Assembly: GCA_049318005.1 (NCBI GenBank)
Contig: JBMOHE010000005.1
Location: 1-54,024, forward strand
Length of the DNA: 54,024 bases
Origin: Patescibacteria group bacterium
Lineage (GTDB): Bacteria > Patescibacteriota > Patescibacteriia > Patescibacteriales > UBA12465
Direction of reading: 5' to 3'
The stretch's first letter is position 1. Each line of letters starts with the position of its first letter. Positions 44,533 to 50,605 of this stretch are shown here, piece after piece. Both the position numbers and the translations under genes were made by a program. The notes under the pieces are model-generated. The model ran no database searches, had not been told where the DNA came from, and saw only the letters and a program-made list of their open reading frames with translations.

Positions 44533-46110
44533 ATGGTTGAAGCAATAAAAGACTTATTAGACAATTATTCTAAAAATATAAAAAATCGTGATAATTTAGA
44601 AATGATTAAGCGTTTAATTTGTAAAAAATATAAATTAGATGCTATTTTAAATGCCGATATTTTAAAAGAATATCGCAATTTATTAGAATCAAAAAAAATT
44701 AAACCTATTGAGGCGATTGAAAAGATATTAAGAAAAAGAAGCATAAGAACGATGTCTGGGATCGCTCCGGTTGCAGTTTTAACTAAATCATATCCTTGTC
44801 CAGGGACTTGTGCTTATTGTCCTCATGAGTCAGACGTGCCAGTTAGTTATTTATCAAATGAGCCGGCAGTTATGAGAGCAATTCGCTGTAAATACGATCC
44901 TTATGTACAGGTAGCCCATCGCTTAAGAGCTTTAGTTAACAATGGTCATGAACCAACCAAGATTGAGTTAATAGTTATTGGTGGGACCTGGAGTTATTTA
45001 CCCACTAAATATAAATATTGGTATATTTTAAACTGTTTTAAGGCGGCTAATGATTTTCAAAACAAAACTATAAATTTAAAAGATAAGTATAAAAAGAATT
45101 TAAACCTCGATAAATTAAAGGAATTATTAAAACTGGAACAGAAAAAAAATGAAAAAGCAAAATATAATTTAATCGGCATAACCCTTGAAACTCGACCCGA
45201 TTATATAAATACTGAAGAGTTATTAGAAATGCGAGACCTGGGTTGTACGAGAGTTGAGATTGGCGTCCAGGCTATTGATGATAAAATTTTAACCCTAAAT
45301 AAACGAGGTCACGGGGTTAAAGAAATTGCCGAAGCAACAAAACTCTTAAAACAGCTTGGCTTTAAAGTTACTTATCATTTGATGCCCGCTCTACCGGGCG
45401 CAACTCCAAAGAAAGATTTAGCTCTGTTTAAGCAATTATTTACAGATGAAAGATTCCAGCCAGATCAAATTAAGTTTTATCCAACAGTAGTAACTAAAGG
45501 TAGTTTATTATATAAGTGGTATAGGCAGGGAAAGTATAAGCCATATTCAGATAAAGTTTTACAAGAATTAATTGTTGAATGCAAGGCAGCTGTCCCGACT
45601 TATGTGAGAATAATTCGTTTAATTCGTGATATTCCAGGAGAGTCAATTATTGCTGGCAACAAAATTACTAATCTTAGGCAGGTTATGAAAGATAGGGGGG
45701 TTAAGTGTAGCTGTATTCGTTGTCGCGAAGCTAAAGATCAGCCAGTAAAAGATTATGACTTAAATATTGTGGAGTATCCTAGTTCTGGCGGAACAGAGTA
45801 CTTTATTAGCGCAGATAGCAAGGACGGTAAAACCTTGTTTGGTTTTTGCCGTCTAAGATTTGATAAGAGTAGTTTGGTTGCCCCTGCAATAATAAGAGAG
45901 CTCCATGTTTATGGAGAATTAGTCGCTGTGGGTTCTAAAAAAATGGTTCAGCACAGCGGACTGGGCACCAAATTGATAGAGGCGGCTGAAAAGTTAGCCA
46001 AGGCCGCAGAACTCAATAAGATTGCGGTTATTTCTGGGGTTGGGGTTAGGTCATATTATAAGAAATTTGGATATAAGCTCTATAGAACTTACATGGAGAA
46101 GCACTTGTAA
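44533..46110 (+). CDS. elp3: Elp3 tRNA U34 acetyltransferase (radical SAM plus KAT domain)
   Basis: SGIAPVAV, CPGTCAYCP (CX3CX2C), ETRPD, TRVEIGVQ, RELHVYG, QHSGLG. Confidence 0.93.
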   Translation: MVEAIKDLLDNYSKNIKNRDNLEMIKRLICKKYKLDAILNADILKEYRNLLESKKIKPIEAIEKILRKRSIRTMSGIAPVAVLTKSYPCPGTCAYCPHESDVPVSYLSNEPAVMRAIRCKYDPYVQVAHRLRALVNNGHEPTKIELIVIGGTWSYLPTKYKYWYILNCFKAANDFQNKTINLKDKYKKNLNLDKLKELLKLEQKKNEKAKYNLIGITLETRPDYINTEELLEMRDLGCTRVEIGVQAIDDKILTLNKRGHGVKEIAEATKLLKQLGFKVTYHLMPALPGATPKKDLALFKQLFTDERFQPDQIKFYPTVVTKGSLLYKWYRQGKYKPYSDKVLQELIVECKAAVPTYVRIIRLIRDIPGESIIAGNKITNLRQVMKDRGVKCSCIRCREAKDQPVKDYDLNIVEYPSSGGTEYFISADSKDGKTLFGFCRLRFDKSSLVAPAIIRELHVYGELVAVGSKKMVQHSGLGTKLIEAAEKLAKAAELNKIAVISGVGVRSYYKKFGYKLYRTYMEKHL

Positions 46111-46235: not shown

Positions 46236-46964
46236 ATGCTAAAAGAAGTGCCAGAAGTAAAAGTAAGAATAATCCCCAAAGAATTTTTCTTGGGGATTGA
46301 AGTTTTAGAAAGAAACGGTTTAAGCTTGAAAAATTTTCGTCGTTTAACTAAAAGTGGTGGTGATGACAAGGCAAAAAGAATTATTGAGATTCTCAACGAG
46401 CCAGTATCTAAATACCATCAACTTATTAAAGAGTGGGAAGAGTTCTATTTAAAGTATTTCAATATTAAAATTGATTTAAAGAAAATAGAGATACCAGCGC
46501 CGCCAAAACAAGAAAAACGATTATTGATTATTGTCCCGGCTTTATCGGTCGACAGGGTGATTAAATCAAAGCGTAAGCATTATAGTGTTGTGATGGCGCT
46601 TTCTGGACCCCCGGCTAAGTTAAGTAACGAAATTACTCATCACGCGCCTTATGCTGCGTGGGTAGCTGAAAGTATTAACCCGCATAGAAAAATGCGAGGA
46701 ACATCCGCTCTTTGGGCAAAGGAAAATAATGTTTCCGGAGAAACTCTTTTAGAAAGATTGTTGCACGATTTCAAGTATTGGGATGAAACAGGAAAACACT
46801 TGGATCATAATTATCTAACAATTTGTTCATCTTCAAGATTCGCAAATGGATTTGTGCCTCTTGTTGCTTTTGATCAAGATAATATCGAAGGGATAATTAT
46901 TACACAGTGCGAGGAGAATAAAAAACATCCTCACCTTGGACACCGTCAAGTATTTCGTCTATAA
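46236..46964 (+). CDS. Hypothetical protein
   Basis: 242-aa ORF with a TTGACA-N17-TATTAT promoter (46145-46173) and a terminator at 46989-47013. Confidence 0.75.
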   Translation: MLKEVPEVKVRIIPKEFFLGIEVLERNGLSLKNFRRLTKSGGDDKAKRIIEILNEPVSKYHQLIKEWEEFYLKYFNIKIDLKKIEIPAPPKQEKRLLIIVPALSVDRVIKSKRKHYSVVMALSGPPAKLSNEITHHAPYAAWVAESINPHRKMRGTSALWAKENNVSGETLLERLLHDFKYWDETGKHLDHNYLTICSSSRFANGFVPLVAFDQDNIEGIIITQCEENKKHPHLGHRQVFRL

Positions 46965-47028
46965 TCAGAAAAAATTGCTTTAGTCAGCGCCCGTTCAGAA
47001 ATGAGCGGGTTTTAAATATCCAAAAAAT

Positions 47029-47058
47029 TTGATTTTTTAAGTTAATATGTGCTATAAT
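47029..47058 (+). promoter_or_regulatory. Promoter TTGATT-N18-TATAAT with extended TG; predicted +1 near 47065
   Basis: tg-c-tataat at 47050-47058. Confidence 0.7.
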
Positions 47059-47064
47059 TAATGT

Positions 47065-47127
47065 ATGTTAATGACTAAAAATATCACAACTTGGTCTGGC
47101 TTTAAAGTATTAAGCACTCTAGTTTAA
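47065..47127 (+). CDS. Putative leaderless leader peptide MLMTKNITTWSGFKVLSTLV
   Basis: ATG coincides with the predicted +1; stop codon lies in the loop of hairpin 1:2. Confidence 0.45.
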   Translation: MLMTKNITTWSGFKVLSTLV

Positions 47128-47177
47128 TCTCAGAGGGCTATTTTTTGTATGAATGGCGCCCTCTGGGGCGTTTTTTT
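47113..47177 (+). promoter_or_regulatory. Attenuator with alternative hairpins 1:2, 2:3 (antiterminator) and 3:4 (terminator)
   Basis: AGCACTCT/AGAGGGCT; CAGAGGGC/GCCCTCTG; CGCCC-TCTG-GGGCG-T7. Confidence 0.7.
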
Positions 47178-47196
47178 ATTTACTAAATCTAAGCTC

Positions 47197-47883
47197 ATGA
47201 ATAAAGAAAATATAAATTTTAGAATTCTGGTTGCATTAGCGCTCTACTTAATATCGTTATTAGCAGCTAATACTTTAGGGTTAAAGTTGATGCCATTTAT
47301 TTTTGGGACACATTTATCGGTTGCCGTATTTTTCTTTCCGTTTGTATATTTAACAACTGATGTCATCGGGCAAGTCTATGGGAAACAGATGGCGAAAAAT
47401 TTTGTTTGGGTGGGGCTGATAAGCATGGTTTTATTTATGCTTTATACGGTAATTTCACTTGCCCTACCTTGGTCTAAAGAAAGTTTAAGTCTTAAGGCGG
47501 GCTATACTTCGGTCTTTGGGATATCGTTAAGAATGTCGATCGCCTCCTTGTTCGCTTATTTTATCGCTGAATATCAAGACGTTATCGCTTTTTTCTTTTT
47601 TAAGAATAAACTTAAAAATAAAAGTTTTTGGCTCCTTTCAAATCTTTCTAATCTCTGGTCACAATTTTTAGATACACTCGTCTTTATGATTATAGCCTTC
47701 GCGGGAATCTATTCATTCAAAACTATTATCTTTATTAGTTTGCCTTGGTGGATATATAAGGTAATAATGGGATTCTTATACACCCCTTTTTCTTATTGGG
47801 GAATTAATTTATTAAAATATGAAAATAAAAGCAATAAAAACAGCGATCTTTCAACCGAAACAGAATCTTTATGTATTCATTGA
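47197..47883 (+). CDS. yhhQ: YhhQ/QPTR (VUT family) transporter, usually annotated as queuosine precursor transporter
   Basis: FFPFVYLTTDVIGQVYG, ASLFAYFIAEYQD, SNLWSQFLDT; start moved to ATG 47197. Confidence 0.88.
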   Translation: MNKENINFRILVALALYLISLLAANTLGLKLMPFIFGTHLSVAVFFFPFVYLTTDVIGQVYGKQMAKNFVWVGLISMVLFMLYTVISLALPWSKESLSLKAGYTSVFGISLRMSIASLFAYFIAEYQDVIAFFFFKNKLKNKSFWLLSNLSNLWSQFLDTLVFMIIAFAGIYSFKTIIFISLPWWIYKVIMGFLYTPFSYWGINLLKYENKSNKNSDLSTETESLCIH

Positions 47884-48517
47884 AAAATATTTGCCTATCA
47901 TAAAAGAGAATATGATTTTGGTGGTGACTTCAAAGATTGTTGCCTTGGCCGAAGGTAGGGTGGAAAAAAATATAAATGAAAATTCAAAGATGGAAATAAT
48001 AAAAAAAGAAAGTGAATTTGTTTTTCCAACTAAATATGTTTGTTTAACTATTAAAGATGGAATCGTTATGGCGAATGCTGGGGTTGATGAAAGCAATGCT
48101 AACGGAGACATTATTCTTTTGCCTCGGAACAGTTTCTTGGCCGCTTCTAAAATAAGAAATCATTTTAAGAAAAAATTCAATTTAAAAAATTTAGGGGTTA
48201 TTGTTACTGATAGTCGATGTTTGCCGTTGCGGTCAGGAATCACCGGAGTTGCTTTAGGTTATGCCGGCTTTCAAGGACTAAAAGATTATCGAAAAAAACT
48301 AGATATCTTTGGTCGCCCGTTTCATTATTCTCGGGTTGATGTGGCTGATAGTTTAGCAACGGCCGCTGTTTATTGCATGGGCGAAGGGGATGAAAAACAA
48401 CCATTAGCGATAATTGGTAATTCGGGAGTAACTTTTTGCGAAAGAACAAATAAAAATGAATTAAAAATTGACATAAAGGAGGATATTTACGGGCCATTAT
48501 TTAAGGAGATTTTGTAA
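47819..48517 (+). CDS. CofE-like (F420-0:gamma-glutamyl ligase family) protein, possibly FolC2-type
   Basis: VVTSKIVALAEG, ANAGVDESN, GVIVTDS, G.ALG.AG, DIFGRP, D.ADSLATAA...MGEGDE..P. Confidence 0.85.
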   Translation: MKIKAIKTAIFQPKQNLYVFIEKYLPIIKENMILVVTSKIVALAEGRVEKNINENSKMEIIKKESEFVFPTKYVCLTIKDGIVMANAGVDESNANGDIILLPRNSFLAASKIRNHFKKKFNLKNLGVIVTDSRCLPLRSGITGVALGYAGFQGLKDYRKKLDIFGRPFHYSRVDVADSLATAAVYCMGEGDEKQPLAIIGNSGVTFCERTNKNELKIDIKEDIYGPLFKEIL

Positions 48518-48526
48518 AAATTAATT

Positions 48527-48555
48527 TTGACAAAAGACCCTCTCTAAATTAAGAT
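48527..48555 (+). promoter_or_regulatory. glyA promoter TTGACA-N17-TAAGAT; transcript probably leaderless
   Basis: -10 ends at 48555 and the ATG is at 48563. Confidence 0.6.
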
Positions 48556-48562
48556 TAAAGAT

Positions 48563-49807
48563 ATGAAATACAATCATTTGCAACAACAAGACCCTGCCGT
48601 TTGGGACATAATCGAGAAAGAGGAAAAACGACAAAATGAAGAACTGGAGCTAATTGCTTCAGAAAATTATGTTAGCCCGGCTGTTCTAGAGGCGATGGCG
48701 ACAGTTTTGACTAATAAATATAGCGAAGGCTATAGTGGTCGTCGTTATTATGGTGGTAATTATAATATTGATGATATTGAAAATTTAGCGATTGAACGCG
48801 TTAAAAAGCTTTTTGATGCCGAGCATGTAAACGTTCAGCCTTTGTCGGGCTCTCCTGCAAACGCGGCTGTTTACATGGCTTTTTTAAGTCCGGGCGATAA
48901 AGTTCTTGGCTTGAAACTTGATCACGGCGGTCATTTATCTCACGGGCATAGTGTTAATTTTTCTGGTCGCCTATATAACTTTGTTCAATATGGAGTTAAC
49001 ACGGAAACTGGAATTATTGATATGGACGAAGTTAGAGAAATTGCTTTAAGAGAAAAACCAAAAATGATAGTGGCTGGTTTCTCGGCTTATTCAAGAGAAA
49101 TTGATTGGCAAAAATTTAAAGATATCGCTGACGAGATTGGTGCTTATACTTTTGCCGATATCGCTCATATCGCTGGATTAATTGCCGCTAAACAGTTAAA
49201 AAATCCGGTGCCAATTTTTGATGTTGTTTCAACTACTACCCATAAAACTTTACGTGGCCCCCGAGGAGCGATAATCATGTGTAAAGAAAAATATGCGAAG
49301 CAAATAAATAGTGCAGTATTTCCAGGTATGCAAGGCGGCCCGCATGATCACATTACTGCCGCTAAAGCAGTTGCTTTTGGCGAAGCGCTGAAACCAGAAT
49401 TTATTGAATATGGAAAACAAATAATTTTAAACGCTAAAGCAATGGCAGAAGAATTTATTAATCGTGGTTATAAAATTGTTTCGGGTGGAACGGATAATCA
49501 TCTTATGGTTCTTGATTTGGGTAATAAAAATTTAGTTGGCAAAGAAGCTGAAAAGGTTTTGGAGAAAATTGGTATTTCTGTTTCTCGCTCAACCATACCA
49601 AATGATCCTAATCCGCCGATGAATCCATCTGGAATTAGAATCGGAACACCGGCCGTAACCACTCGTGGTTTGAAAGAATTAGAAATGAAACTAGTGGTTG
49701 AATATATTGACGAGGCATTTATGAATAAGGAAGATGAAAATAAACTTAGTGAGTTAAAACAAAAAGTTGAAGAACTTTGTGAAAAGTTTCCAGTTCCAAC
49801 AAAATAA
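48563..49807 (+). CDS. glyA: Serine hydroxymethyltransferase
   Basis: LIASENY, NKYSEGY, GGHLSHG, TTTHKTLRGPRG (PLP lysine). Confidence 0.98.
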   Translation: MKYNHLQQQDPAVWDIIEKEEKRQNEELELIASENYVSPAVLEAMATVLTNKYSEGYSGRRYYGGNYNIDDIENLAIERVKKLFDAEHVNVQPLSGSPANAAVYMAFLSPGDKVLGLKLDHGGHLSHGHSVNFSGRLYNFVQYGVNTETGIIDMDEVREIALREKPKMIVAGFSAYSREIDWQKFKDIADEIGAYTFADIAHIAGLIAAKQLKNPVPIFDVVSTTTHKTLRGPRGAIIMCKEKYAKQINSAVFPGMQGGPHDHITAAKAVAFGEALKPEFIEYGKQIILNAKAMAEEFINRGYKIVSGGTDNHLMVLDLGNKNLVGKEAEKVLEKIGISVSRSTIPNDPNPPMNPSGIRIGTPAVTTRGLKELEMKLVVEYIDEAFMNKEDENKLSELKQKVEELCEKFPVPTK

Positions 49808-49813
49808 AAACAT

Positions 49814-50605
49814 ATGGTTAAAATAATTAATGGACAAGCAATCGCCGAAAGAGTTAAAGATGAGGTGGCGCAAGAAATATTTGAGTGGAAGGGGCCAAGG
49901 CCAAGTCTTGCCATTGTTTTGGTTGGGGAACGTGAAGATTCTAAACTTTATGTTTCTTTAAAGCAAAAAGAAGCTGTAAAAGTTGGTGTTGATACTCATT
50001 TATATGAACTTGAAGAAAAAACTTCTGAGGAAGAGGTGTTAAGTGTTATTGATTTTCTAAATAAAGATGAATCAATTGATGGGATTTTAGTTCAGCTACC
50101 TTTGCCAGCACATATTGATGCCGATAAAATTATTGCGGCCATGTATCCAAATAAAGATGTTGATGGTTTTCATCCGGAACACCCCGATTATATTACTTCT
50201 CCTGTTTTGGCTGCAATTATTGCTTGTTTAGATGAAATAAAATTTGATTATCGCGGAAAGACTGCGTGTGTTTTTTATAATTCAGAAATTTTTGGTTTAA
50301 GCGTTAAAGAAATTTTAGAATCAAGAGATGTAGAAATTTTGCCTTTAGAAAAATCTGATGAGGCTGATATTTTAATTAGTGCCCTAGGCTTACCGCTGTC
50401 GGTTAAAAAAGAAGTTATTAAGAACGGCGCAGTTTTAATTGATATTGGAACAACTAAAGTTGATGGAAAAGTAATAGGCGATATTGATTTTGAAGACGTA
50501 AAAGATAAAGCAGAATATATTACTCCGGTTCCAGGCGGGATTGGCCCAATGACAATTGCCTTTTTATTCAAGAATGTTTTAGAGATATTTAAGAGACGGT
50601 ATTAA
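49814..50605 (+). CDS. folD: Methylene-THF dehydrogenase/cyclohydrolase FolD
   Basis: IINGQAIA, GILVQLPLP, KDVDGFH, DIG, ITPVPGGIGPMT. Confidence 0.95.
   Translation: MVKIINGQAIAERVKDEVAQEIFEWKGPRPSLAIVLVGEREDSKLYVSLKQKEAVKVGVDTHLYELEEKTSEEEVLSVIDFLNKDESIDGILVQLPLPAHIDADKIIAAMYPNKDVDGFHPEHPDYITSPVLAAIIACLDEIKFDYRGKTACVFYNSEIFGLSVKEILESRDVEILPLEKSDEADILISALGLPLSVKKEVIKNGAVLIDIGTTKVDGKVIGDIDFEDVKDKAEYITPVPGGIGPMTIAFLFKNVLEIFKRRY

What the first reader, a model, noticed from the sequence alone, without database searches (positions are those of the whole stretch)
47050..47197. Leaderless leader peptide and four-segment attenuator upstream of yhhQ
Seen: an extended -10 (47050-47058) puts +1 on the ATG at 47065, opening a 20-codon ORF (MLMTKNITTWSGFKVLSTLV) that stops at 47127. 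Segment 1 (47113-47120, last codons) pairs with segment 2 (47132-47139). Segment 2 (CAGAGGGC) pairs perfectly with segment 3 (GCCCTCTG, 47158-47165). Segments 3 and 4 form CGCCC-TCTG-GGGCG plus T7, 20 nt before the yhhQ ATG. Known: this is the trp-type ribosome-coupled attenuation layout, whereas yhhQ genes are more usually under preQ1 riboswitches. There is no run of one amino acid. Inference: it senses decoding speed or tRNA modification state, or a ligand-dependent stall near L-S-T, rather than an amino acid.
Basis: partly seen in the sequence, partly recalled or inferred. Interest (0 to 1): 0.8.

Follow-up and report, generated by a model that had tools for sequence, protein, structure and literature searches.

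The report
Folate-operon leader peptide switch
A tiny 20-codon gene at the very start of the messenger RNA, whose first 13 amino acids are almost unchanged across ultra-small Patescibacteria (CPR), sits in front of competing RNA hairpins and appears to switch on the cell's folate (vitamin B9) uptake and one-carbon genes when a ribosome stalls on it; I found no published description of it.

Summary
Promoter, 20-codon uORF, antiterminator and terminator lie at the stated coordinates.

**The uORF is a conserved, translated leader peptide.**
- I collected 118 distinct leaders across Patescibacteria.
- All fit M-L-x6-T-W-S-(G/S)-F, and Trp is always codon 10.
- Variation is concentrated at third codon positions.
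- The -10 box ends 6 or 9 nt before the ATG in 27 of 42 leaders, and an SD-like motif is rare. The mRNA is therefore probably leaderless.

**It is a three-segment switch, not four.**
- The antiterminator and terminator covary.

**The regulon is folate, not queuosine.**
- Downstream genes include Vut_1/YhhQ-like and another putative transporter, FolC2-like and FolC ligases, GlyA and FolD.
- They also include DHFR, FolB-domain and ThyA-like proteins, and putative gamma-glutamyl hydrolases.

**A short variant uses a different output.**
- uORFs of 14-16 codons lack a terminator.
- The sequence just after their stop codon pairs with the start region of the next gene.
- Both layouts give ON only if a ribosome is held at TWS(G/S)F. 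I therefore favour an arrest-type sensor of folate or one-carbon status.
- The signal itself is unknown, and no RNA or experimental data exist.

I found no Rfam family or paper describing it.

The parts
46990..47013 (+). Terminator-like hairpin (CCCGTTC-AGAAAT-GAGCGGG, then TTTT) that ends the upstream gene and insulates the leader promoter
   Evidence: Read directly from the sequence. Also present in the closest ortholog, L002. Not tested further.
47029..47058 (+). Sigma-70-type promoter: -35 TTGATT, 18-nt spacer, extended -10 TGCTATAAT
   Evidence: 10 of 12 matches, with TG. In 27 of 42 leaders from this order a -10 box ends exactly 6 or 9 nt before the uORF ATG.
47065..47127 (+). Leaderless leader ORF, 20 codons plus TAA: MLMTKNITTWSGFKVLSTLV
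   Evidence: Conserved as a peptide in 118 unique leaders. An SD-like motif lies upstream in only 6 of 118.
47089..47103 (+). Invariant core codons 9-13, T-W-S-G-F: the proposed ribosome-arrest or sensing motif
   Evidence: T9 in 117 of 118, W10 in 118, S11 in 118, G/S12 in 74/44, F13 in 115. Third positions vary freely: entropy summed over codons 2-13 is 9.6, 7.9 and 16.6 for positions 1, 2 and 3 in the set found with the covariance model.
47129..47167 (+). Antiterminator hairpin. The 5' arm (segment 2, 47129-47138) starts 2 nt after the stop codon. The 3' arm (segment 3, 47158-47167) overlaps the terminator's 5' arm and loop.
   Evidence: Fold. The same arrangement appears in about 39 leaders. 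Swap test: cognate -11.7 against non-cognate -8.0 kcal/mol, p<=5e-5. The base of the helix sits at nt 67 +/- 2 from the ATG whatever the uORF length.
47155..47177 (+). Intrinsic terminator GGCGCCC-TCTG-GGGCGTT overlapping a T7 run (47171-47177)
   Evidence: The consensus fold of 36 leaders recovers it, and 5 of 7 pairs show compensatory changes.
47197..47883 (+). Vut_1 (YhhQ-like) putative vitamin transporter, the first regulated gene
   Evidence: Pfam PF02592, E=1.6e-35. Orthologs start at this ATG, not at 47149.
47819..48517 (+). CofE/FolC2-like gamma-glutamyl ligase. It overlaps the transporter gene by 65 nt.
   Evidence: Pfam PF01996, E=2e-35. A chlamydial member of this family, CT611, complements an E. 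coli folC mutant (PMC1971073).
48563..50605 (+). glyA (SHMT, 48563-49807) and folD (49814-50605), the distal genes of the conserved order leader-[Vut_1]-FolC2like-GlyA-FolD
   Evidence: Pfam; gene order in 42 loci. A separate promoter-like site at 48527-48555 may also drive glyA in this genome.

Best explanation
This is a translation-operated attenuator for the folate/one-carbon regulon of Patescibacteria.

**Layout.** Transcription starts at, or within 3 nt of, the ATG at 47065. A ribosome loads on the 5' end without a Shine-Dalgarno sequence and translates a 20-codon leader. The first 13 residues (M-L-x6-T-W-S-G/S-F) are the conserved functional unit. The variable tail is a spacer.

**Decision.** The antiterminator (47129-47167) is transcribed before the terminator's 3' arm and is more stable than the terminator.
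- It forms, and RNA polymerase reads into Vut_1/FolC2-like/glyA/folD, unless a ribosome has reached the end of the uORF.
- A ribosome near the stop codon covers or unwinds the 5' arm of the antiterminator. The terminator (47155-47177) then forms and transcription stops.
- A ribosome held at the T-W-S-G-F codons leaves the antiterminator free, so expression is ON.

**Short variant.** In relatives with a 14-16-codon uORF the same peptide is joined to a different output. The RNA just after the stop codon pairs with the start region of the next gene, and a ribosome held at the motif would open that hairpin. This also gives ON.

**What is shown and what is inferred.**
- Shown: peptide-level conservation, the competing helices and their covariation, the geometry, and the regulon.
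- Inferred: the transcription start, the stall itself, its position, and the signal.

My best guess is a nascent-chain arrest tuned by folate or one-carbon status. It could be a folate species bound with the nascent chain in the exit tunnel, or the formylation state of the chain's own N-terminus.
For: 1. **Translated peptide.**
- 118 unique leaders share M1, (L2), T9, W10, S11, G/S12 and F13, and no indel was ever seen between M1 and W10.
- In the 31 leaders found with a nucleotide covariance model, third codon positions carry about twice the entropy of positions 1 and 2. S11 uses TCT/TCC/TCA/TCG 10/9/6/6.
- One leader with 68% GC (L093) keeps the peptide but not the nucleotides.
- No covarying RNA helix lies in the coding part, and there is no Rfam match.

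2. **Leaderless.**
- The -10 box ends 6 or 9 nt before the ATG in 27 of 42 leaders.
- An SD-like motif precedes 6 of 118 uORFs, against 33 of 111 downstream genes.

3. **Switch.**
- A terminator starts 21-37 nt after the stop in nearly all of the 42 leaders from this order and shows compensatory changes.
- In most leaders the antiterminator is more stable than the terminator, roughly -9 to -21 against -7 to -15 kcal/mol.
- It covaries with the terminator arm (p<=5e-5).

4. **Geometry.**
- The antiterminator base lies at nt 61-71 from the ATG, independent of uORF length (r=-0.05).
- The shortest long-class uORFs (18 aa) put a terminating ribosome's front edge just at that base.

5. **Two outputs, one logic.**
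- The short class has no terminator. Its post-stop segment pairs with the downstream start region: -7.6 against -5.4 kcal/mol, p~0.001.
- Absence of translation would give ON in the long class and OFF in the short class. A ribosome held at the motif gives ON in both.

6. **Regulon.** The downstream genes are Vut_1, a second putative transporter, FolC2-like, FolC, GlyA, FolD, DHFR, FolB-domain, ThyA-like/pterin-binding, NlpC/P60 and FGase-family.
Against: - There is no transcript-end, ribosome-profiling or reporter evidence. Two sets of metatranscriptomes gave no usable coverage.
- The stall is inferred. No known arrest motif resembles TWSGF.
- The short-class hairpins are AU-rich and their support is moderate (p~0.001 with 16 leaders, relatedness not controlled).
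- For 18-aa uORFs a terminating ribosome only just reaches the antiterminator base, so masking may depend on kinetics.
- L2, W10, S11 and part of codons 12-13 were fixed in two of the three search patterns, which inflates their apparent invariance. The protein-anchored set (13 leaders) and the covariance-model set (31 leaders) are free of that bias and agree.
- Permutation tests do not correct for phylogenetic relatedness.
- tgt is present in 12 of 12 genomes tested, so a queuosine-precursor role for the Vut_1 transporter is not excluded.
Confidence: 0.6

Rival explanations
1. Serine/glycine hunger-codon attenuator. Uncharged tRNA-Ser (and tRNA-Gly) slows the ribosome at Ser11 and Gly/Ser12, as Trp codons do in trpL. 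This would turn on SHMT and its folate supply to interconvert Ser and Gly.
For: - S11 is invariant, and position 12 is only ever Gly or Ser, the two SHMT substrates.
- glyA is in the regulon.
- E. coli trpL works with only two regulatory codons (textbook knowledge).
- Another agent's unchecked note reports the same leader before a serine-synthesis operon (e1-4528939).
Against: - It does not explain the invariant T9, W10 and F13, the fixed M1-W10 spacing, or the conserved L2.
- Most regulated genes are folate uptake, reduction and glutamylation genes (DHFR, FolC, FolC2-like, FolB-domain, transporters). Ser or Gly starvation is not a natural signal for these.
- A ribosome with codon 11 or 12 in the A site would barely reach the post-stop segment of the short class.
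Confidence: 0.12
2. Initiation sensor. Loading of 70S ribosomes on the leaderless AUG depends on formyl-Met-tRNA. When 10-formyl-THF is low the uORF is simply not translated, the antiterminator forms by default, and the operon that makes 10-formyl-THF is switched on.
For: - The start is leaderless.
- In the long class the untranslated leader is predicted to fold into the antiterminator.
- glyA-folD produce 10-formyl-THF, and fmt is present in 12 of 12 leader-bearing genomes.
- The regulon resembles that of the folate-stress ZTP riboswitch (PMC7484762; the regulon itself is from my own knowledge of Kim, Nelson and Breaker 2015).
Against: - It gives no reason for an invariant TWS(G/S)F peptide.
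- In the short class, absence of translation leaves the downstream start region sequestered, which is OFF. That is the opposite outcome for the same genes.
- This reading can merge with the best explanation if the N-terminal formyl group is read inside the tunnel rather than at initiation.
Confidence: 0.12
3. RNA-level element: a riboswitch aptamer or a protein-binding site that happens to overlap an open frame. For example, an undescribed folate or preQ1 aptamer.
For: - Some codon-level bias exists. Codon 8 is nearly always NNA (ACA/AAA) and Thr9 is nearly always ACY. This gives a conserved AACYUGGUC string.
Against: - No Rfam family matches, even at E<=10.
- The 5' 90 nt fold no better than shuffles (z=-0.4).
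- The only candidate helix in the coding part shows no covariation.
- Variation has strict 3-nt periodicity, and the frame and the ATG are invariant in 118 leaders.
Confidence: 0.04

Closest known systems
trp operon leader (trpL) and other enterobacterial leader-peptide attenuators (hisL, pheL, thrL, leuL)
   Same: A short uORF precedes mutually exclusive antiterminator and terminator hairpins. The position of the translating ribosome decides which forms. A ribosome reaching the stop codon masks the antiterminator's 5' arm.
   Different: - There is no run of cognate hunger codons.
- The peptide sequence itself is conserved (13 residues).
- No conserved 1:2 anti-antiterminator exists, so the untranslated default is readthrough.
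- The start is leaderless.
- The regulon is a cofactor (folate) pathway, not an amino-acid pathway.
Leaderless attenuator uORFs: Sinorhizobium meliloti trpL (PMC7298713) and mycobacterial polycysteine leaderless short ORFs (bioRxiv 10.1101/834739)
   Same: The regulatory uORF begins at the 5' end of the transcript and controls the downstream operon through its own translation.
   Different: Those elements sense Trp or Cys through hunger codons. Here no amino-acid run exists and the conserved unit is a specific peptide.
Metabolite-sensing arrest peptides TnaC (tryptophan) and SpeFL (ornithine)
   Same: Conservation is at the amino-acid level, an essential Trp lies in the nascent chain, and the uORF is short. 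A stalled ribosome prevents termination, so the operon is induced. In tna, a transporter gene is among the induced genes.
   Different: - There is no sequence similarity.
- The proposed stall is only about 13 residues from the N-terminus.
- Termination here is intrinsic rather than Rho-dependent.
- Neither the ligand nor the stall has been demonstrated.
ermC/ermB-type translational attenuation
   Same: This applies to the short (14-16 codon) class. A ribosome arrested on a short leader peptide would open a hairpin that hides the ribosome-binding site of the next gene.
   Different: The inducer there is an antibiotic bound in the tunnel. Here the context is a metabolic regulon, and the same peptide is also wired to a terminator/antiterminator.
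THF and ZTP riboswitches
   Same: They are functional counterparts. They control folate transporters and folate genes (THF), or glyA/folD and one-carbon genes under 10-formyl-THF shortage (ZTP), often through terminator/antiterminator platforms.
   Different: They are RNA aptamers. Neither they nor any other Rfam family matches here, and the conserved element here is a translated peptide.

Membership tests
Ribosome-mediated (leader-peptide) transcription attenuator | Short translated ORF in the 5' leader of the operon | tested here: met
   20-codon ORF at 47065-47127. Coding-type conservation in 118 leaders. Translation itself has not been observed.
Ribosome-mediated (leader-peptide) transcription attenuator | Intrinsic terminator upstream of the first structural gene | tested here: met
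   47155-47177. Present in nearly all of the 42 leaders from this order. 5 of 7 pairs show compensatory changes.
Ribosome-mediated (leader-peptide) transcription attenuator | Antiterminator mutually exclusive with the terminator and within reach of a ribosome at the end of the uORF | tested here: met
   47129-47167. Family-wide fold, swap test p<=5e-5, geometry.
Ribosome-mediated (leader-peptide) transcription attenuator | Segment 1:2 (anti-antiterminator or pause) helix, giving four segments as in trpL | tested here: not met
   Cognate -6.5 against non-cognate -6.1 kcal/mol, p=0.12. In the window, 7 of 8 pairs; 6% of shuffles do as well.
Ribosome-mediated (leader-peptide) transcription attenuator | Cluster of regulatory codons for the amino acid made by the operon | tested here: not met
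   No amino-acid run. The regulon is folate, not an amino-acid pathway.
Regulatory arrest peptide (TnaC/SpeFL/Erm-leader kind) | Function depends on the amino-acid sequence of the nascent chain, not on codons | tested here: inconclusive
   Conservation is at the peptide level and synonymous sites vary freely.
Regulatory arrest peptide (TnaC/SpeFL/Erm-leader kind) | Demonstrated ribosome stall at a defined codon, dependent on an effector | not testable with these tools
   Needs toeprinting, Ribo-seq or cryo-EM. The metatranscriptomes gave no coverage.
Regulatory arrest peptide (TnaC/SpeFL/Erm-leader kind) | Expression platform placed so that a ribosome stalled at the motif changes the RNA fold | tested here: met
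   - Long class: the antiterminator base is about 28 nt past the last nt of codon 13, so it stays free when a ribosome is stalled there.
- Short class: the anti-start segment begins at the stop codon, 1-3 codons after F13.
Leaderless mRNA | Transcription start at or within a few nt of the start codon, and no Shine-Dalgarno | tested here: inconclusive
   Predicted from -10 spacing of 6 or 9 nt in 27 of 42 leaders and an SD-like motif in 6 of 118. No 5'-end data exist.
preQ1, THF, THF-II or ZTP riboswitch | Match to the family covariance model | tested here: not met
   No such hit at E<=10 in 46900-47300 or at gathering score in the whole window.

The most novel reading that the evidence does not exclude
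The ML-x6-TWS(G/S)F nascent chain, inside the ribosome, is itself the cell's sensor of folate or one-carbon status.
- It could work by trapping a folate species between Trp10 and Phe13 in the exit tunnel.
- Or it could read whether its own N-terminal Met, held exactly nine residues before Trp10, carries the formyl group made from 10-formyl-THF.

That would make it a peptide-based counterpart of the THF and ZTP riboswitches in a phylum that lacks them in this leader. It would also be modular in the way riboswitches are: one sensor joined to either a transcriptional or a translational output.
Probability: 0.4. Interest if true: 0.9.

Novelty: new variant of a known kind. Interest (0 to 1): 0.8.

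Why it matters
Patescibacteria (CPR) make up a large share of bacterial diversity. They are mostly uncultured, and almost nothing is known about how they regulate genes.

**What this element offers**
- It would be a phylum-wide cis-regulator that defines their folate regulon.
- Membership in that regulon assigns candidate functions to poorly understood genes:
  - a Vut_1/YhhQ-like transporter and a second, unannotated membrane protein, as folate importers;
  - a CofE-family ligase as a FolC substitute;
  - NlpC/P60 and FGase-family proteins as possible folylpolyglutamate hydrolases;
  - a FolB-domain fusion protein.

**Mechanistic interest**
- It would add a cofactor pathway to the short list of processes controlled by sequence-specific leader peptides.
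- One peptide sensor would be coupled to two different expression platforms.
- If the signal is formylation of the nascent chain or a bound folate, it would be a new way for ribosomes to sense metabolites.

The element is short, about 113 nt, and can be tested directly with reporters and toeprinting.

Tried and rejected
- **Rfam.** I searched the leader at E<=10 and the whole window at gathering score. Only tRNAs and noise came back.
- **Single-sequence folding.** The leader is not significantly more stable than shuffles (z=-1.6 for the whole leader, z=-0.4 for the 5' 90 nt). The evidence had to come from comparison with relatives.
- **Segment 1:2 helix.** Not conserved.
- **A 5' hairpin in the coding region** (nt 9-14 with nt 27-32). 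No covariation; the observed value equals the shuffles.
- **MAFFT plus RNAalifold on trimmed antiterminators.** No consensus emerged, because the helices are not in register. I replaced it with a swap test of cognate against non-cognate arms.
- **RNA evidence.** Metatranscriptomes from the window's own study and from a lake sample holding a relative gave zero or spurious coverage.
- **Queuosine reading.** I considered it because Vut_1/YhhQ transports preQ0/preQ1 in E. coli and tgt is present. I set it aside as the regulatory theme because the leader precedes glyA-folD, DHFR, FolC and FolB-domain genes where the transporter is absent.
- **Q-codon (Asn/His/Tyr) or MnmEG-codon sensing in codons 3-8.** Such codons are enriched in some subfamilies (for example MLHNHQ) but absent in others (for example MLITKTTKTW and MLITKLIKTW).
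- **Literature.** Searches for the motif, for arrest peptide plus tetrahydrofolate, for Patescibacteria plus leader peptide, and for leader peptide plus folate/glyA found no description.
- **Technical point.** Loci that the genome search returns for minus-strand matches are not re-oriented. My first reading of 8 loci was wrong until I reverse-complemented them.
Full report
**1. What is in the window**

- After the stop of an unannotated 242-aa gene (46964) comes a terminator-like hairpin at 46990-47013.
- A promoter follows: TTGATT, 18 nt, then TGCTATAAT (47029-47058).
- Six nt later an ATG (47065) opens a 20-codon ORF, MLMTKNITTWSGFKVLSTLV, with its stop at 47125-47127.
- Two nt after the stop a long hairpin begins (47129-47167). 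Its 3' arm overlaps the 5' arm and loop of a canonical terminator (47155-47172, with T7 to 47177).
- The predicted fold of the whole leader is dominated by the long hairpin, not the terminator.
- The downstream gene (47197-47883) is a Vut_1/YhhQ-family transporter. It overlaps a CofE/F420-ligase-family gene by 65 nt, and glyA and folD follow.
- No Rfam family matches the leader, even at E<=10.
- As a single sequence the leader folds no better than shuffles. The question had to be settled by comparison with relatives.

**2. The uORF is a conserved peptide**

I first found orthologs of the transporter in related genomes through the protein alone. After re-orienting the minus-strand loci, 13 of 17 carried an upstream uORF with the same beginning. 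Trp was always codon 10, and the codons differed at synonymous sites (TCT/TCA/TCC/TCG, GGC/GGT/GGA/GGG, ACT/ACC, TTT/TTC).

Four further searches enlarged the set.
- A degenerate pattern found 49 sites in 316 genomes of the order, against 7 for the reversed control. Of these, 42 are clear family members.
- A covariance model built from 36 leaders knows nothing about codons. It recovered roughly 35 more in 401 genomes sampled across the class, of which 31 were distinct enough to tabulate.
- The same model recovered 7 more in 401 genomes sampled across the phylum.
About 75 of the 80 loci it returned were true members. By record title nearly all are Patescibacteria: Falkow-, Uhr-, Magasanik-, Wildermuth-, Colwell-, Nomura- and Kerfeld-bacteria, Moraniibacteriota and Saccharimonadales. 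About five hits are probably chance, four of them from titles outside the phylum (Bacteroidetes, Streptosporangiaceae, Salipiger, Poribacteria) plus one doubtful Tolypothrix hit.
- Contig titles of same-genus genomes place the window in 'Candidatus Falkowbacteria'.

The set comes to 118 unique leaders.

| Position | Count out of 118 |
|---|---|
| M1 | 118 |
| L2 | 113 |
| T9 | 117 |
| W10 | 118 |
| S11 | 118 |
| G or S at 12 | 74 and 44 |
| F13 | 115 |

- No insertion or deletion was ever seen between M1 and W10.
- Residues 3-8 are polar or basic but variable.
- Everything after residue 13 varies in both sequence and length.

In the 31 leaders found with the covariance model, entropy summed over codons 2-13 is 9.6, 7.9 and 16.6 for codon positions 1, 2 and 3. 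Ser11 uses all four TCN codons almost equally. A leader with 68% GC keeps the peptide but not the nucleotides (L093). The one candidate RNA helix inside the coding part shows no covariation. The conservation is therefore at the protein level.

**3. The mRNA is probably leaderless**

- In 27 of the 42 leaders from this order a -10 box, mostly a perfect TATAAT, ends exactly 6 or 9 nt before the ATG.
- An SD-like tetramer precedes only 6 of 118 uORFs, against 33 of 111 downstream genes.
- No 5'-end data could be obtained, so this remains a prediction.
- Leaderless regulatory uORFs have precedents in the S. meliloti trpL attenuator (PMC7298713) and in mycobacterial polycysteine uORFs (10.1101/834739).

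**4. The switch has three segments**

- In nearly all of the 42 leaders from this order a terminator starts 21-37 nt after the stop. RNAalifold recovers it, and 5 of 7 pairs show compensatory changes.
- When the terminator's 3' arm is left out, the terminator's 5' arm pairs with the segment just after the stop codon in nearly every leader. In most leaders this antiterminator is more stable than the terminator, roughly -9 to -21 against -7 to -15 kcal/mol.
- The arm sequences differ between lineages but stay complementary. Examples are CAGAGGGC/GCCCTCTG, CGATAAGGCG/CGCCTTATC and GGGATGAGGA/TTCTCATCTC.
- In a swap test, cognate arms give -11.7 kcal/mol and non-cognate arms -8.0 (p<=5e-5). The 21 nt before the stop give -3.1.
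- So no anti-antiterminator exists. An untranslated leader should read through, and the ribosome itself prevents the antiterminator from forming.
- The base of the antiterminator lies at nt 61-71 from the ATG (mean 67), whatever the uORF length (r=-0.05). Its offset from the stop codon compensates for uORF length (r=-0.79).
- The geometry is therefore set from the start codon and motif. The shortest uORFs of this class (18 aa) are just long enough for a terminating ribosome to reach the antiterminator base.

**5. A second output for the same peptide**

- uORF lengths are bimodal: 14-16 codons in 17 leaders and 18-28 codons in 101.
- The short class, which includes the Saccharimonadales-labelled genomes, has no recognisable terminator.
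- Instead, the ~20 nt beginning at the stop codon pair with the Shine-Dalgarno and start region of the next gene. Examples are TAGCTCCTTC with GAAGGATATAGCTA, and AAACTCTTAG with CTAGGAGATTT.
- Cognate pairs give -7.6 kcal/mol and non-cognate pairs -5.4 (p~0.001, 16 leaders).
- This is the erm-type layout. The support is moderate, because the helices are AU-rich and relatedness was not controlled.

Both classes precede the same gene families, and that helps separate the models.

| Ribosome state | Long class | Short class |
|---|---|---|
| Translates straight through | OFF | OFF |
| Absent (no translation) | ON | OFF |
| Held at or near codon 13 | ON | ON |

This is my main reason for preferring a stall at TWS(G/S)F over failure to initiate as the regulated step.

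**6. What is regulated**

- Within the order the gene order is leader-[Vut_1]-FolC2like-GlyA-FolD.
- Where the transporter is missing the leader sits before FolC2like. Where both are missing it sits before glyA-folD.
- Across the phylum the first gene after the leader can be any of the following:
  - another Vut_1 subfamily;
  - an unannotated multi-pass membrane protein followed by FolC2like;
  - classical FolC;
  - DHFR;
  - a FolB-domain fusion;
  - a ThyA-like protein with a pterin-binding domain;
  - NlpC/P60 or FGase-family proteins, plausibly gamma-glutamyl hydrolases.
- A CofE-family protein from Chlamydia complements an E. coli folC mutant (PMC1971073).
- This is a folate and one-carbon regulon. 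Both tgt and fmt are present in all 12 leader-bearing genomes tested, so neither a queuosine role for the transporter nor a formylation signal is excluded by gene content.

**7. Mechanism and what remains open**

Shown:
- a translated-type conserved peptide;
- a probable leaderless start;
- covarying alternative helices;
- a fixed ruler from the ATG to the antiterminator;
- two expression platforms;
- a coherent regulon.

Inferred:
- the ribosome stalls on TWS(G/S)F;
- the stall gives ON;
- the stall reports folate or one-carbon status.

The identity and direction of the signal are unknown. The candidates, in my order of preference:
- (a) A folate-related small molecule acts with the nascent chain, as Trp does with TnaC.
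- (b) The formylation state of the chain's own N-terminus. This would explain the leaderless start, the conserved M-L and the invariant nine-residue spacing.
- (c) Ser/Gly-tRNA supply.
- (d) Initiation efficiency alone.

Codon-specific decoding or tRNA modification is unlikely, because synonymous codons are used freely at the invariant residues. One exception is an unexplained bias at codons 8 and 9, NNA then ACY.

**8. Novelty**

- No Rfam family matches, and no paper in the searchable library describes the motif or a leader peptide for folate genes.
- Other agents of this scan noted the same family in other genomes and read it similarly. I saw those notes only after reaching my reading. They are not independent evidence.
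- The kind of mechanism, leader-peptide attenuation, is known.
- The new features are the conserved arrest-type peptide, the cofactor regulon, the phylum, and the dual platforms. I therefore class it as a new variant of a known kind, of high interest.

Noticed in passing
L037, L072, L112, L136, L164, L185, L191 (downstream of the leader): An unannotated ~230-aa multi-pass membrane protein with no Pfam hit takes the place of the Vut_1 transporter, directly upstream of the FolC2-like gene and under the same leader. It is a candidate new folate importer family.
   Followed up: partly
L040, L076, L084, L086, L096, L118 and others; L028, L073, L117, L171: A specific NlpC/P60 family (starting M-x-YRAVGNRCAV) and an FGase-family (PF05013) protein are recurrent first genes after the folate leader. 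They are plausible folylpolyglutamate (gamma-glutamyl) hydrolases for folate salvage.
   Followed up: partly
L087, L132, L172, L188, L199: A ~320-aa protein has an N-terminal FolB (dihydroneopterin aldolase) domain fused to a ~200-aa C-terminal domain with no Pfam match. It is under the same leader in genomes not expected to make folate de novo.
   Followed up: partly
L069 and L166: A 481-487-aa protein combines a thymidylate-synthase-like region with a PterinBD-DUF4346 domain. It follows the leader.
   Followed up: partly
window 47089-47094 and all family members (codons 8-9): There is codon-level bias inside the conserved peptide. Codon 8 is almost always NNA (ACA or AAA), while Thr9 is almost always ACT or ACC and hardly ever ACA. 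Peptide conservation alone does not explain this.
   Followed up: no
window 47819-47883: The Vut_1 gene and the FolC2-like gene overlap by 65 nt. That is unusually long for translational coupling.
   Followed up: no
window 48527-48555: A good promoter-like site (TTGACA, 17 nt, TAAGAT) lies just upstream of glyA. In this genome glyA-folD may therefore escape the leader in part. In other genomes the leader sits directly before glyA.
   Followed up: no
window 44533-46110: A full-length Elp3-type radical-SAM/GNAT protein is encoded two genes upstream of the leader. Another note of this scan also flags it.
   Followed up: no
window 47139-47146 and most long-class leaders: The GC-rich antiterminator 5' arm is followed by a U-rich run (here TATTTTTTG). 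This run pairs with the A-rich tract just before the terminator, so the antiterminator arm mimics the terminator's 3' arm plus its U-tract. It might also act as a polymerase pause site.
   Followed up: no
L004, L005, L007, L009, L012, L014-L016 and other minus-strand loci: Loci that the genome search returns for minus-strand matches are stored un-reoriented. Reading them as plus-strand gives the wrong upstream region.
   Followed up: yes
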